DNA of 64,000 bases from Shigella phage Sfk20. The notes under the pieces are model-generated. The model saw nothing but the letters and a program-made list of their open reading frames with translations. It searched no databases and was not told the DNA's origin. The position numbers were made by a program, and so were the translations under genes. Where the stretch lies: sequence record MW341595, one strand, 5' to 3'. Position 1 is the first letter of the stretch. The number at the start of each line of letters is the position of its first letter. Shown piece by piece: positions 27,696-30,509 of this stretch.

Positions 27696-27884
27696 TTAGT
27701 CCTTAGTTAAATTTTCTAAATATGTTTCTAAATCATTTTCAGCTTTATCGATAGATTTTACTAATTCGTAATATGTTTCGGCATCTCCATAATCTGAAGC
27801 CGCTTCAAAAGATAAATCTCGTTCTAAACTAATAATTTCACCAACTAAAAATAATATTTCGTTCTTTTGTTCGCGGGTAATCAT
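27696..27884 (-). CDS. hypothetical protein
   Basis: 62 aa acidic ORF. Confidence 0.45.
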   Translation of the reverse strand: MITREQKNEILFLVGEIISLERDLSFEAASDYGDAETYYELVKSIDKAENDLETYLENLTKD

Positions 27885-28066
27885 AAGGAATTTATATAAT
27901 CAATAAGTTCTTGTTCTTTATCGTCGAAATCTTTACACAGTTCTTCGTATTCGTCAGTATTAAAAGGACCGCATTCATCACAAACTTTTTCCAATTCACT
28001 GTTTTTATCCATAACTTCGTGAATAAGAGAAAACAGCTTGTCTTTTTGTTCTTTACTTAGGCTCAT
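27881..28066 (-). CDS. hypothetical protein
   Basis: 61 aa acidic ORF. Confidence 0.45.
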   Translation of the reverse strand: MSLSKEQKDKLFSLIHEVMDKNSELEKVCDECGPFNTDEYEELCKDFDDKEQELIDYINSL

Positions 28067-28232
28067 ATATTAATTTCCAAAAGTTTTAAAATAATTCGCT
28101 TTTGCTTAAATATTTCCATAGTTAAATGATCAGTATCTTTTTGGCCAATTCCAATTGCAAAACCTTTATTAACAGCTAGTTCAATTAAATTATCAAGTTC
28201 ACGTAACACTTCATATTGTAGCTCAGAACTAT

Positions 28233-28460
28233 TCATTTCGGTTTACCTTCTTTAACGAAATCAGGATAAGGATAAAATCCTGAATAAAATCCTTCACCTT
28301 TATGATTGATGCATCCTTTATTAGAACAATAGCACCAATAATCGAAATCACAAGCCATTTCATCATTACATAAAGCAAAAACAACCGGCCATTCACACTT
28401 TTCGCAGTGGGCATTTTTAAGAATACTAGTTTGACTCATAACCATGTAACCTTTAAGCAA
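28233..28460 (-). CDS. hypothetical Cys-rich protein
   Basis: 75 aa with 8 Cys (CEKCEW...CYCSNKGC). Confidence 0.45.
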   Translation of the reverse strand: MLKGYMVMSQTSILKNAHCEKCEWPVVFALCNDEMACDFDYWCYCSNKGCINHKGEGFYSGFYPYPDFVKEGKPK

Positions 28461-28648
28461 TATTCTTCTACATGTTGTTTACGACCTTTTTTATCAATAA
28501 AGGTATATTCAACGAATGTTCCAATATAATCTTTATCTACATCATGTGGACTATTAATTGGGCATTTAGTACGGCAAATGCGTTCCCATTGACGAATAAT
28601 TTCCACTTTGTTTTTAGGATCAAACGGATGCGGGTAATGTACTTTCAT
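28436..28648 (-). CDS. hypothetical protein
   Basis: 70 aa ORF. Confidence 0.45.
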   Translation of the reverse strand: MKVHYPHPFDPKNKVEIIRQWERICRTKCPINSPHDVDKDYIGTFVEYTFIDKKGRKQHVEEYCLKVTWL

Positions 28649-29099
28649 AATCCACCACTATTAAATCAATATCAGGAGTAAACATGTCGATTAATTTAGA
28701 AACCTTATCCCAATCGCCGCCAGCAATACCACAACCGATGCGTGGAATGTAAATTACTGGTTTAAACAAAAGGGTTTCTGCCTGTAGATTTAATTCTATC
28801 ATACAGTTTACTAAAGCACCATAATCAAGATTAGGACCCGGTTCGTATTGCGTATACAAATTATAGCACATACTAAATCCTGTAGGATTATGTTTAAAAA
28901 CAATAGACATATCGCCTAATTTATCACGAGAACCGTACTCGGTAGTGGTTTTATCTATTTCTAAAATTTTGGGATAGGCTCTTGCTAATTGACCTGCTAC
29001 GCCAGAGCCCATTGTGTGGAAGCAATTACACCCGTGCGCAATAATATTACCTTGAAGAAATAGGGCGACAATATCGCCCTTGATATATTTTACAATCAT
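28620..29099 (-). CDS. hypothetical protein, possibly macro-domain-like
   Basis: 159 aa; N-terminal KGDIV...HGCNCFHTMGSGVAGQLA loosely resembles macro-domain GDI...NAAN...GGGV pattern. Confidence 0.4.
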   Translation of the reverse strand: MIVKYIKGDIVALFLQGNIIAHGCNCFHTMGSGVAGQLARAYPKILEIDKTTTEYGSRDKLGDMSIVFKHNPTGFSMCYNLYTQYEPGPNLDYGALVNCMIELNLQAETLLFKPVIYIPRIGCGIAGGDWDKVSKLIDMFTPDIDLIVVDYESTLPASV

Positions 29100-29443
29100 C
29101 TAGTACTCAATCCTCGATTATAAGAATCTACTAAACGGTCAACCATTGAATGACAAGCGGCTTTATCTTTCTCCTCCGCAACTGAACATTCTAAGGTATT
29201 CCACTTTTTAGCATATCGTTTTAACAATGTATCATTTTTGTATCTGCTTGATTTATCTCTTTCTCCGTCTTTATATGCATATATTAATTTCTGTGCAAAT
29301 TCAGCTTGGCATGCTTTATTTTTCCCGCAATAATCTGCGGCAGTACGGTTTACATACTCTCTAATTTCAGTATATGATGTATCTGCTGATGCAGAAGCAG
29401 AAAATGAAATTAATCCTATACATAAAACCAAAATTTTAGTCAT
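29096..29443 (-). CDS. hypothetical secreted protein
   Basis: 115 aa; N-terminal signal peptide MTKILVLCIGLISFSASASA. Confidence 0.5.
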   Translation of the reverse strand: MTKILVLCIGLISFSASASADTSYTEIREYVNRTAADYCGKNKACQAEFAQKLIYAYKDGERDKSSRYKNDTLLKRYAKKWNTLECSVAEEKDKAACHSMVDRLVDSYNRGLSTR

Positions 29444-29981
29444 TTACTATTTCCAAAAGTTTATTATTTTTAAGGTAATTAGCCTTTTCTAGGACTTCAG
29501 AAGCATATTTAGAACCTGCTTTAACGTTCCATCCCGAATTATAAGAGGATATCGCCTTTCTTATATCGCCCTTATGTATATTTAACCAATAAGAAAGTTC
29601 AATGTACGCCCAGGAAGCTGAATTGGATCGTTTATTCAACATTCTTTTTATTTCAGCATCGGTCATATTATAACCAAGTTCCTTAACTCTCGCTCGCATA
29701 GTCGGCAAATAATTTTGGAACATTCCATAGGCATGATGCTTTGGTTTAGATTTTAAATTAACTCCGGCAGAGCTTTCTTGCCATAAAATAGCAGCCATTA
29801 TATGACCCAATCCGCTCTTGTGGATATTTTTGTGTGTTTTATATTTTCCATCCTTAGAAAATTGTTCCCCGAATTGATATGCGTAGCGCATGTTATCGAG
29901 TTGGACATTACTGAAAGTATGCTCGGAGCTATGTGCCATCATTGAAATGGCCAATAGACCAGCGAGTAGTGCTTTTCTCAT
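29436..29981 (-). CDS. lytic transglycosylase-like secreted protein
   Basis: 181 aa; signal peptide plus SLT-type catalytic motif AAILWQESSAG. Confidence 0.6.
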   Translation of the reverse strand: MRKALLAGLLAISMMAHSSEHTFSNVQLDNMRYAYQFGEQFSKDGKYKTHKNIHKSGLGHIMAAILWQESSAGVNLKSKPKHHAYGMFQNYLPTMRARVKELGYNMTDAEIKRMLNKRSNSASWAYIELSYWLNIHKGDIRKAISSYNSGWNVKAGSKYASEVLEKANYLKNNKLLEIVND

Positions 29982-29988
29982 GCTTACC

Positions 29989-30450
29989 TCATTGAGTTTT
30001 AATTACTGCTTTAGAAGCCTTTCCTGGTAAACGACGACTGTTGATAATTGCCATCCTACATTGAAGCGACGGGTCTTTGAACTTCGCATTAGGTTTACAA
30101 ACTGTAAATCCAAGCCAAAGATTTCCATCTGTGATTTCTAAACGTCCAGGGCGATATTCAACCCCATCAATAAAATCCTCGTCAATGTCAGGACGCGGAG
30201 GCATACTCAGGAATTCATTAACTTCTAAAACATGGTCTTTTATTTTGTGGAATAATTCAAAAACATATGTCTCATCAATCTCTCGTTGAATTGCACGATC
30301 AAGAAGATGCTGAGAATATTTTAGATGAAACGATGAGACCCCTGCTGCTTTTGATGCCTCACGAATCTCATTGTTAATTTGACGAAACTCCGACTCAAAG
30401 TGACGACGAAGCTTATTTCGACGGATAAAAACTTCTGTGTTGATAGTCAT
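29989..30450 (-). CDS. regB: endoribonuclease RegB
   Basis: 153 aa; matches recalled T4 RegB; early promoter immediately upstream. Confidence 0.88.
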   Translation of the reverse strand: MTINTEVFIRRNKLRRHFESEFRQINNEIREASKAAGVSSFHLKYSQHLLDRAIQREIDETYVFELFHKIKDHVLEVNEFLSMPPRPDIDEDFIDGVEYRPGRLEITDGNLWLGFTVCKPNAKFKDPSLQCRMAIINSRRLPGKASKAVIKTQ

Positions 30451-30475
30451 GTTATTCTCCTCTTAACTGATAGAA

Positions 30476-30509
30476 AAATTATACCACAGTCAAGAGGAAA
30501 AGTAAACAG
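30476..30509 (-). promoter_or_regulatory. T4-type early promoter upstream of regB
   Basis: GTTTAC - 18 nt - TATAAT on minus strand, about 25 nt upstream of regB ATG. Confidence 0.6.

What the first reader, a model, noticed from the sequence alone, without database searches (positions are those of the whole stretch)
28620..29981. Possible macro-domain protein next to a secreted protein and a lytic-transglycosylase-like protein
ORF 28620-29099 has KGDIV...HGCNCFHTMGSGVAGQLA, loosely matching the macro-domain ADP-ribose-binding pattern; T-even phages ADP-ribosylate host proteins, so an ADP-ribose-processing enzyme would be notable. The next two ORFs have signal peptides; 29436-29981 carries an SLT-type motif (AAILWQESSAG), a third muralytic activity besides lysozyme e and the gp5 lysozyme domain. 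The macro assignment is weak and needs a profile search.
Basis: inference. Interest (0 to 1): 0.45.

Follow-up and report, generated by a model that had tools for sequence, protein, structure and literature searches.

The report
T4 tk.4/adfM, vs and vs.1 genes
The three reading frames are the already catalogued phage T4 genes tk.4 (a macrodomain recently shown in T4 to defeat the bacterial DarTG2 DNA-ADP-ribosylating defence), vs and vs.1 (a predicted secreted cell-wall-cutting enzyme), so the domain calls are right but nothing new is found.

Summary
The window is a T4-like phage (Tequatrovirus). The three minus-strand ORFs exist as described. They are the orthologues of T4 tk.4 (58% identical), vs (100%) and vs.1 (99%).

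- **vs:** The "secreted protein" is the valyl-tRNA synthetase modifier. It has a textbook signal peptide and four invariant cysteines. This conflicts with its cytoplasmic partner and is unexplained.
- **vs.1:** It has a signal peptide, all four SLT motifs and a profile match to the lytic transglycosylase EtgA.

The three genes do not form an obligate module. The local peculiarities are a sharply bounded divergent tk.4 allele and a two-ORF insertion beside it. Verdict: correct but already known; low interest.

The parts
28620..29099 (-). tk.4 / adfM: stand-alone 159-aa macrodomain of the ALC1/TARG1-like class, Gln-type like SCO6735. Key codons: D9, H22, N25 (29027-29025), Q84 (28850-28848), and the loop P119-W130 (PRIGCGIAGGDW).
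29096..29443 (-). vs: 'valyl-tRNA synthetase modifier', 115 aa. Predicted mature part is 95 aa (11.0 kDa) with four invariant Cys.
   Evidence: 100% identical to T4 Vs. phrog_1256 E 1.7e-39. Homologue alignment. Computed masses.
29384..29443 (-). Predicted Sec signal peptide of Vs (MTKILVLCIGLISFSASASA, cleavage ASA|DT).
   Evidence: Heuristic n/h/c analysis. The property is kept in 12 of 12 homologues while the sequence varies.
29436..29981 (-). vs.1: 181-aa predicted periplasmic SLT/GH23-type lytic transglycosylase. Catalytic Glu69 is at 29777-29775. Motifs: E69-S70, G86-M-F-Q89, S146-Y-N-S-G150, Y159.
   Evidence: 99% identical to T4 Vs.1. Pfam SLT 23.4 bits. 34 of 39 homologues hit SLT. 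Invariant residues. A wide profile hits EtgA (8urn) at E 3e-7.
29928..29981 (-). Predicted Sec signal peptide of Vs.1 (MRKALLAGLLAISMMAHS, cleavage AHS|SE).
   Evidence: Heuristic analysis; kept in 39 of 39 homologues.
28560..29075 (.). Sharply bounded divergent cassette relative to T4, covering most of tk.4 and the start of tk.3. Nucleotide identity is 45-78% inside it and 93-100% in the flanks.
   Evidence: Sliding identity of the window against T4. The window-type allele is found at full length in 316 phage records.
28067..28434 (-). Insertion relative to T4 between tk.2 and tk.3. It carries two small ORFs of unknown function (57 aa, and 68 aa rich in Cys).
   Evidence: BLASTN breakpoints against T4. 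phrog_3452 and phrog_2306.
29989..30450 (-). regB endoribonuclease, the gene immediately upstream in the same transcription direction (context).
   Evidence: Pfam REGB_T4 E 1.4e-68.
30478..30506 (-). Promoter-like site (TTTACT, 17-nt spacer, TATAAT, with TG) upstream of regB. It may drive regB, vs.1, vs and tk.4, which fits early expression.
   Evidence: Consensus scan and sequence. This is a consensus match only.

Best explanation
The three ORFs are three separate, non-essential early-region accessory genes of a T4-like phage.

(1) tk.4/adfM encodes a cytoplasmic single-domain macrodomain hydrolase of the ALC1/TARG1-like class. It most likely binds the ADP-ribose that the host DarT2 toxin attaches to thymidines in single-stranded phage DNA. 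It then cleaves the N-glycosidic bond and restores replicable DNA, so the phage escapes the DarTG2 defence. The chemistry is probably that of SCO6735: an invariant Gln (Q84) positions the distal ribose and a backbone-held water does the chemistry. This differs from the catalytic Lys of DarG and TARG1.

(2) vs.1 encodes a small basic enzyme that is exported by the Sec pathway. It most likely cuts peptidoglycan glycan strands as a lytic transglycosylase, using Glu69. Its role in infection is unknown; local remodelling of the wall of the infected cell is the best guess.

(3) vs is the classical valyl-tRNA synthetase modifier.

Shown here: gene identity, domain folds and motifs, conservation, allele structure. 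Shown by others: the T4 tk.4 knockout becomes sensitive to DarTG2, and SCO6735 cleaves dT-ADPr with Q85 essential. Inferred: that this 58%-identical allele has the same activity, and that Vs.1 is active and periplasmic.
For: Identity: Tequatrovirus synteny tk, tk.1-4, vs, vs.1, regB, with alignments to T4 of 58%, 100% and 99%.

Active site: 81 homologues keep H22, G23, N25, Q84, P119, G122, G124 and W130. Q84 lies where TARG1 K84 and the DarG PTK lysine lie (TARG1 sequence verified). The PRIGCGIAGGDW loop matches SCO6735 PRIGCGLAGGTW and BT1257. SCO6735 has Gln85 at the lysine position, Q85A is inactive, and the enzyme cleaves dT-ADPr and protects against DarT. The Asn equivalent to N25 matters in PhiKZ AdfM (N23A).

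Genetics: T4 tk.4 was the single hit against DarTG2, and a clean knockout is sensitised.

Vs.1: Pfam SLT in 34 of 39 homologues. Invariant E69, G86, F88, Q89, Y147, N148, G150 and Y159. A profile hit to the type III secretion lytic transglycosylase EtgA at E 3e-7, aligning AIAW-ES. Signal peptide features.
Against: No enzymology exists for any T4-type Tk.4; the preprint infers hydrolysis from homology. The window allele is only 58% identical to the tested T4 protein, and the divergence is concentrated in this gene, so its specificity could differ. The family lacks the DarG/TARG1 catalytic Lys and TARG1 Asp125, with Q84 and A126 in their places. It also lacks the Lys-bearing mobile loop invoked for DNA binding by SCO6735. 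The Q84-Q85 equivalence rests on matching residue spacing and shared motifs, not on a printed residue-by-residue alignment. For Vs.1, the single-sequence Pfam score is marginal. The protein alone and a narrow family profile found no solved structure. Its fold was not modelled, and no phenotype is known beyond non-essentiality in T4.
Confidence: 0.8

Rival explanations
1. Tk.4 is an ADP-ribose-1''-phosphate phosphatase like yeast Poa1p. This is the legacy 'phosphatase / A1pp' annotation. It would clear a small-molecule by-product of RNA repair or NAD metabolism rather than repair DNA.
Against: The only phenotype of the T4 orthologue is loss of DarTG2 resistance. The Gln-type active site and the PRIGCGxAGGxW loop match SCO6735, a DNA dT-ADPr hydrolase. 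The phosphatase label comes from a 2003-2006 domain name, not from an assay.
Confidence: 0.07
2. Tk.4 reverses or tunes ADP-ribosylation made by the phage's own transferases (Alt, ModA, ModB) on host proteins or RNA.
For: T4-like phages do encode such transferases (established knowledge). SCO6735 and TARG1 can also de-modify Asp/Glu-linked proteins and uracil in RNA.
Against: The T4 transferases mainly modify arginine, a linkage that macrodomains of this class are not known to cleave (established knowledge). The T4 tk.4 mutant has no defect without DarTG2: 45 of 46 TA sites tolerated insertions. No genomic linkage to those genes was seen in the loci examined.
Confidence: 0.05
3. The window-type tk.4 allele is a specificity variant. 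It was exchanged as a cassette because it counters a different DarT2 lineage or another ADP-ribosylating defence (for example RNA-base modification) than the T4 allele does.
For: The divergent cassette is sharply bounded and confined to tk.4, within flanks 93-100% identical to T4. Both allele classes are common among Tequatroviruses. The phosphate-loop residues differ: CGIAGGD here and AGIGKGN in T4. Related enzymes act on both thymine and uracil ADP-ribose.
Against: All family-invariant residues are kept in both alleles. Mosaic exchange of accessory genes is routine in T4-like phages and need not change function.
Confidence: 0.2
4. Vs.1 is not an active muralytic enzyme. It would be a binding or structural protein that only retains an SLT-like fold.
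For: The Pfam score is marginal. No solved structure is found with the protein alone or with the narrow family profile. The gene is non-essential in T4.
Against: The catalytic Glu and the other three SLT motifs are invariant or nearly so across 39 to 91 homologues down to 23% identity. That is the pattern expected of a maintained active site.
Confidence: 0.12

Closest known systems
T4 Tk.4 = AdfM (anti-DarT factor Macrodomain; bioRxiv 10.1101/2025.11.20.689424)
   Same: Same genomic slot between vs and tk.3. Similar length (159 against 155 aa). 58% identical, with every family-invariant residue kept.
   Different: It is a different allele class. The phosphate-loop residues differ and the protein is four residues longer at the C-terminus, so its 3' end overlaps tk.3 by 29 nt. 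This allele has not been tested.
Streptomyces coelicolor SCO6735 (PDB 5e3b) and Bacteroides BT1257 (PDB 2afc/2fg1)
   Same: Stand-alone ALC1-like macrodomains. SCO6735 has the His-x-x-Asn motif, Gln at the catalytic-lysine position and the PRIGCGLAGGxW loop, and it cleaves dT-ADPr on DNA. BT1257 shares the His-x-x-Asn motif and the loop, and is the best fold match.
   Different: About 25-29% identical. They are bacterial chromosomal genes. Tk.4 lacks the SCO6735 mobile loop with Lys89 and Lys94. BT1257 has no known function.
DarG antitoxin macrodomain (PDB 5m3i, 5m31) and PhiKZ gp104 'AdfM' (Cell Rep 2026, PMC13309987)
   Different: DarG and gp104 have the PTK catalytic lysine and a PPLG-type loop. 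gp104 matches DarG at E 9e-25, whereas Tk.4 reaches only 2.5e-5. Tk.4 has no DarT-binding C-terminal domain. The two phage proteins named AdfM therefore belong to different sub-families.
Human TARG1/OARD1 (PDB 4j5r)
   Same: Top Foldseek match (E 3.8e-10, TM 0.72-0.82). Shares the KGD and PRIGCG motifs.
   Different: TARG1 catalytic K84 and D125 correspond to Q84 and A126 here.
SLT/GH23 lytic transglycosylases, especially the secretion-system-associated EtgA (PDB 8urn/4xp8)
   Same: Small secreted single-domain enzymes with AIAW-ES, G-x-x-Q and Y-N-x-G motifs. The profile match is E 3e-7.
   Different: Vs.1 has an extra N-terminal segment of about 40 residues, conserved only among T4-like phages. 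It has Ala where EtgA has Asp in its 'TYDIG' segment. It is not linked to any secretion apparatus.
T4 Vs (valyl-tRNA synthetase modifier)
   Same: Identical protein.
   Different: None. The predicted export signal conflicts with the textbook cytoplasmic role.

Membership tests
Macro domain (Pfam PF01661) | Profile score above the curated gathering threshold | tested here: met
   33.8 bits against 22, E 3.7e-8, covering 2-117 of 118 profile positions.
Macro domain (Pfam PF01661) | Three-layer alpha/beta/alpha macro fold | tested here: met
Macro domain (Pfam PF01661) | ADP-ribose binding | not testable with these tools
   The ligand-contacting motifs are present (D9, N25, G31-S-G33, G122-x-G124). 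Binding itself needs an assay.
ALC1/TARG1-like macrodomain class, Gln-type (SCO6735-like) | Closest structures are TARG1, DarG, Poa1p, BT1257 or SCO6735 rather than MacroD or PARG types | tested here: met
ALC1/TARG1-like macrodomain class, Gln-type (SCO6735-like) | Gln at the position of the DarG K80 / TARG1 K84 catalytic lysine, plus the His-x-x-Asn motif and the PRIGCGxAGGxW loop | tested here: met
   Q84, H22 and N25 are invariant in 81 homologues. Alignment to TARG1 and DarG. Loop identity to SCO6735 and BT1257. SCO6735 residues H24, N27 and Q85.
ALC1/TARG1-like macrodomain class, Gln-type (SCO6735-like) | Hydrolysis of thymidine-linked ADP-ribose on ssDNA | not testable with these tools
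   Known for SCO6735. Only inferred for T4 Tk.4.
DarG antitoxin (NCBIfam NF048014 equivalog) | Full-length score above the curated cut-off, which includes the C-terminal DarT-binding domain | tested here: not met
   28.9 bits against a cut-off of 250. Only positions 2-142 of 338 match, and the protein is 159 aa. The PADLOC DarG model matches positions 3-144 of 329.
DarG antitoxin (NCBIfam NF048014 equivalog) | Catalytic lysine (K80) in a PTK motif | tested here: not met
   YTQ replaces PTK.
DarG antitoxin (NCBIfam NF048014 equivalog) | Encoded next to a darT toxin gene | tested here: not met
   The neighbours are vs and tk.3.
AdfM of T4 (tk.4 orthologue) | Orthologous position and full-length similarity to T4 Tk.4 | tested here: met
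   It lies between vs and tk.3 and is 58% identical over the full length.
AdfM of T4 (tk.4 orthologue) | Protects the phage against DarTG2 | not testable with these tools
   Shown for the T4 allele only.
SLT / GH23 lytic transglycosylase (Pfam PF01464) | Profile score above the gathering threshold | tested here: met
   23.4 bits against 21.3, which is marginal. 34 of 39 homologues match at E 0.01 or better, with a best value of 1.3e-7.
SLT / GH23 lytic transglycosylase (Pfam PF01464) | Family-1 motifs: E-S (catalytic Glu), G-L-M-Q, A-Y-N-x-G, and a downstream Tyr (motif definitions from established knowledge) | tested here: met
   E69-S70, G86-M-F-Q89, S146-Y147-N148-S-G150 and Y159. E69, Y147, G150 and Y159 are invariant in 91 sequences.
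SLT / GH23 lytic transglycosylase (Pfam PF01464) | Significant relation to a solved lytic transglycosylase | tested here: met
   The wide family profile hits EtgA (8urn) at E 3e-7. The narrow profile and the single sequence found nothing.
SLT / GH23 lytic transglycosylase (Pfam PF01464) | Lysozyme-like alpha-helical fold and muralytic activity | not tested
Activity needs an assay.
Sec-type cleavable signal peptide (Vs and Vs.1) | Basic n-region, hydrophobic h-region of 10 or more residues, small residues at -3/-1, and no lipobox | tested here: met
   Heuristic only. Vs is MTK / ILVLCIGLISF / ASA|D and Vs.1 is MRK / ALLAGLLAISMMA / AHS|S. The property is kept in 12 of 12 and 39 of 39 homologues, whereas the Tk.4 family scores low.

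The most novel reading that the evidence does not exclude
Vs is really an exported, disulfide-bonded periplasmic protein, not primarily a cytoplasmic valyl-tRNA synthetase modifier. It has a canonical cleavable signal peptide and four invariant cysteines, and its start codon overlaps the stop of the secreted transglycosylase gene vs.1. It may work in the envelope, possibly together with or on Vs.1. In that case the 50-year-old functional label, and the newly reported minimal-medium phenotype of vs, would need a different explanation.
Probability: 0.12. Interest if true: 0.55.

Novelty: already known. Interest (0 to 1): 0.17.

Why it matters
The finding mainly confirms existing annotation. The macrodomain is the T4-family counter-defence gene adfM, and the SLT-like protein and vs are long-catalogued genes. 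Three smaller points are useful.

- T4-type AdfM belongs to the Gln-type (SCO6735/BT1257) branch. It is not in the Lys-type DarG branch, to which the PhiKZ protein of the same name belongs. The two AdfM proteins therefore probably use different chemistry.
- The gene is exchanged among Tequatroviruses as a sharply bounded allele cassette, which is typical of genes in an arms race. This offers a natural test of specificity.
- The export signal on Vs conflicts with its textbook role.

Tried and rejected
- **Single-sequence AlphaFold of Tk.4:** the model was useless (pLDDT 33.7).
- **Solved structures for Vs.1:** the protein alone and the 39-sequence family profile found no significant match. Only the wider 91-sequence profile, built from the 1.84-billion-protein search, reached EtgA.
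- **Solved structures and families for Vs:** there was no PDB, NCBIfam or local Pfam match.
- **'DarG orthologue' rejected:** Tk.4 lacks the lysine, the C-terminal domain and a darT neighbour, and its score is far below the equivalog cut-off.
- **'Three-gene functional module' rejected:**
  - Aeromonas phage 44RR has regB, vs.1, two other ORFs and tk.4, but no vs.
  - Acinetobacter phage Henu6 and Felixounavirus FM4b carry the macrodomain alone.
  - The family sizes differ greatly: at least 795, 13 and 77 clusters for Tk.4, Vs and Vs.1.
- **Residue-level alignment to SCO6735 around Q85:** the tool printed only the C-terminal loop, so the equivalence rests on residue spacing and shared motifs.
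- **Original Vs biochemistry:** the paper PMC354445 is not held.
- **Literature on Vs.1:** the search found only the 2006 comparative-genomics prediction.
Full report
**What is there.** The window is a T4-like myovirus. The 4 kb around the finding matches 761 phage records. The best is Shigella phage KNP5 at 98%, and 476 records are 95-99% identical, almost all of them Tequatrovirus. All genes in the stretch lie on the minus strand. Comparison with the annotated records of Escherichia phage Ec_MI-02 and T4 gives the order tk, tk.1, tk.2, two extra small ORFs, tk.3, tk.4, vs, vs.1, regB. The three ORFs of the finding are:
- tk.4 at 28620-29099, 159 aa;
- vs at 29096-29443, 115 aa;
- vs.1 at 29436-29981, 181 aa.

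Vs is 100% identical to the T4 protein and Vs.1 is 99% identical, but Tk.4 is only 58% identical. The genes are tightly packed. The vs start overlaps the vs.1 stop by 8 nt, and the tk.4 start overlaps the vs stop as ATGA. A promoter-like site (TTTACT, 17 nt, TATAAT, with TG) lies upstream of regB.

**The macrodomain.**
- Pfam Macro scores 33.8 bits against a gathering threshold of 22 (E 3.7e-8) over the whole profile.
- Sequence search of the PDB finds BT1257 (9e-11), yeast Poa1p (2e-9), SCO6735 (8e-8), M. tuberculosis DarG (2.5e-5) and human TARG1 (0.01).
- A single-sequence AlphaFold run failed. With 81 homologues the model reached pLDDT 94.6.
- The DarG models of NCBIfam and PADLOC match the macro part only, at about 5e-7 and far below the equivalog cut-off.

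**Active site.** Across 81 homologues, H22, G23, N25, C26, G33, A35, D49, N80, Y82, Q84, P119, G122, G124 and W130 are invariant. I aligned Tk.4 with TARG1, the two DarG macrodomains and PhiKZ gp104. The TARG1 sequence was recalled from memory and then verified as identical to PDB 2lgr. In this alignment Q84 occupies the place of the catalytic lysine (TARG1 K84, the DarG PTK motif), and A126 replaces TARG1 D125. That looked like a problem until the literature on SCO6735 was read:
- It has Gln85 at the lysine position, and Q85A is completely inactive.
- Its probed active-site residues are H24, V25 and N27.

Tk.4 has H22, N25 and Q84 at essentially the same spacing (H-to-N identical, N-to-Q one residue longer). 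Its PRIGCGIAGGDW loop is nearly identical to SCO6735 PRIGCGLAGGTW and BT1257 PRIGCGLAGGKW. TARG1 has PRIGCGLDRLQW and DarG has PPLGAGNGGLPW. Tk.4 is therefore a Gln-type, SCO6735/BT1257-like member of the ALC1/TARG1-like class.

**What it does.** A November 2025 preprint (HIDEN-SEQ) challenged a saturated T4 transposon library with DarTG2 and found tk.4 as the single hit. A clean knockout became sensitive, and the gene was renamed adfM. Enzymatic removal of ADP-ribose from DNA was proposed but not assayed. An independent 2026 paper gave the same name to PhiKZ gp104. That paper showed in vitro removal of DarT2-made ADP-ribose and reduced activity of an N23A mutant. The gp104 protein is a Lys-type DarG relative: it matches DarG at E 9e-25 and has the PTK motif. 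The two AdfM proteins therefore belong to different branches.

The best explanation for the window's gene is a cytoplasmic dT-ADPr DNA glycohydrolase that neutralises DarTG2. The T4 mutant has no defect without DarTG2.

**Allele structure.** Against T4, nucleotide identity is 93-100% through tk.3, vs, vs.1 and regB. It falls to 45-78% between about 28560 and 29075, which covers most of tk.4. The window-type allele occurs at full length in 316 phage records. At the protein level, 312 records are at least 90% identical, and the T4-type allele sits at about 58%. The window allele is closer to the family consensus in the phosphate loop than the T4 allele is: CGIAGG here and AGIGKG in T4. Directly beside it, 28067-28434 is an insertion absent from T4 that carries two small ORFs of unknown function. 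Homologues of Tk.4 are very widespread, with tblastn matches in 2767 of 50,697 phage records.

**Vs.1.**
- The Pfam SLT score is marginal (23.4 against 21.3), but 34 of 39 homologues match independently.
- E69, G86, F88, Q89, Y147, N148, G150 and Y159 are invariant. These correspond to the E-S, G-L-M-Q, A-Y-N-x-G and Tyr motifs of family-1 lytic transglycosylases (motif definitions from established knowledge).
- The protein alone and a narrow profile hit no solved structure.
- A profile search of 1.84 billion proteins gave 414 relatives. Some of these also match SLT.
- The resulting 91-sequence profile hits the type III secretion lytic transglycosylase EtgA at E 3e-7, aligning the AIAW-ES catalytic segment. 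It hits goose-type lysozymes weakly.

The N-terminus is a typical Sec signal, kept in 39 of 39 homologues. The prediction was already published in 2006, and T4 vs.1 is non-essential. I commit to a periplasmic lytic transglycosylase. Its biological role is unknown.

**Vs.** The 'secreted protein' is the classical valyl-tRNA synthetase modifier. It has a textbook signal peptide (cleavage ASA|DT) whose sequence varies but whose character is kept in 12 of 12 homologue clusters. The 95-aa (11.0 kDa) mature part has four invariant cysteines. This predicts export and disulfide bonding, which conflicts with binding a cytoplasmic enzyme. The preprint reports that a vs deletion impairs plaques only on minimal glucose medium. 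I could not resolve the conflict.

**Not a module.** Aeromonas phage 44RR has regB, vs.1, two other ORFs and tk.4, but no vs. Acinetobacter phage Henu6 and a Felixounavirus carry only the macrodomain. Family sizes differ by more than an order of magnitude.

**Verdict.** The macrodomain's role has recently been established genetically in T4. Novelty: already known. Interest: low.

Noticed in passing
window 28067-28434 (ORFs 28063-28236 and 28233-28439, minus strand): An insertion of about 367 bp relative to T4 between tk.2 and tk.3. It carries two small ORFs of unknown function: 57 aa (phrog_3452), and 68 aa rich in Cys (phrog_2306). It lies directly beside the divergent tk.4 cassette, so this spot looks like a hot spot of accessory-gene exchange.
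   Followed up: partly
window 29096-29443 (vs), signal peptide 29384-29443: The classical 'valyl-tRNA synthetase modifier' has a canonical cleavable signal peptide and four invariant cysteines. This predicts a periplasmic protein, at odds with its cytoplasmic partner.
   Followed up: partly
window 29062-29080: A perfect palindrome, AGGGCGATATTGTCGCCCT, lies inside the 5' end of tk.4 and codes for KGDIVAL. The scan flagged it as terminator-like on both strands. It lies close to the 5' edge of the divergent cassette.
   Followed up: no
window 27696-27884 (tk.1) and 27881-28066 (tk.2): Both small proteins match the same PHROG family (phrog_653), so they are tandem paralogues of unknown function.
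   Followed up: no
L005 2995-3780 (Salmonella phage FM4b, Felixounavirus): A Tk.4-like macrodomain forms the N-terminal half of a 261-aa protein that has an extra C-terminal region, which I did not characterise.
   Followed up: no
window 28436-28648 (tk.3) and 28620-28648: In this allele tk.4 is four residues longer than in T4. Its 3' end overlaps the start of tk.3 by 29 nt, instead of the 4-nt ATGA overlap seen in T4. tk.3 matches Pfam DUF7202.
   Followed up: no
window 30452-30463 (minus strand), upstream of the regB start at 30450: The ribosome-binding region of regB reads AAGAGGAGAATAAC ATG. It contains the GGAG motif that RegB itself cleaves, according to the T4 annotation note.
   Followed up: no
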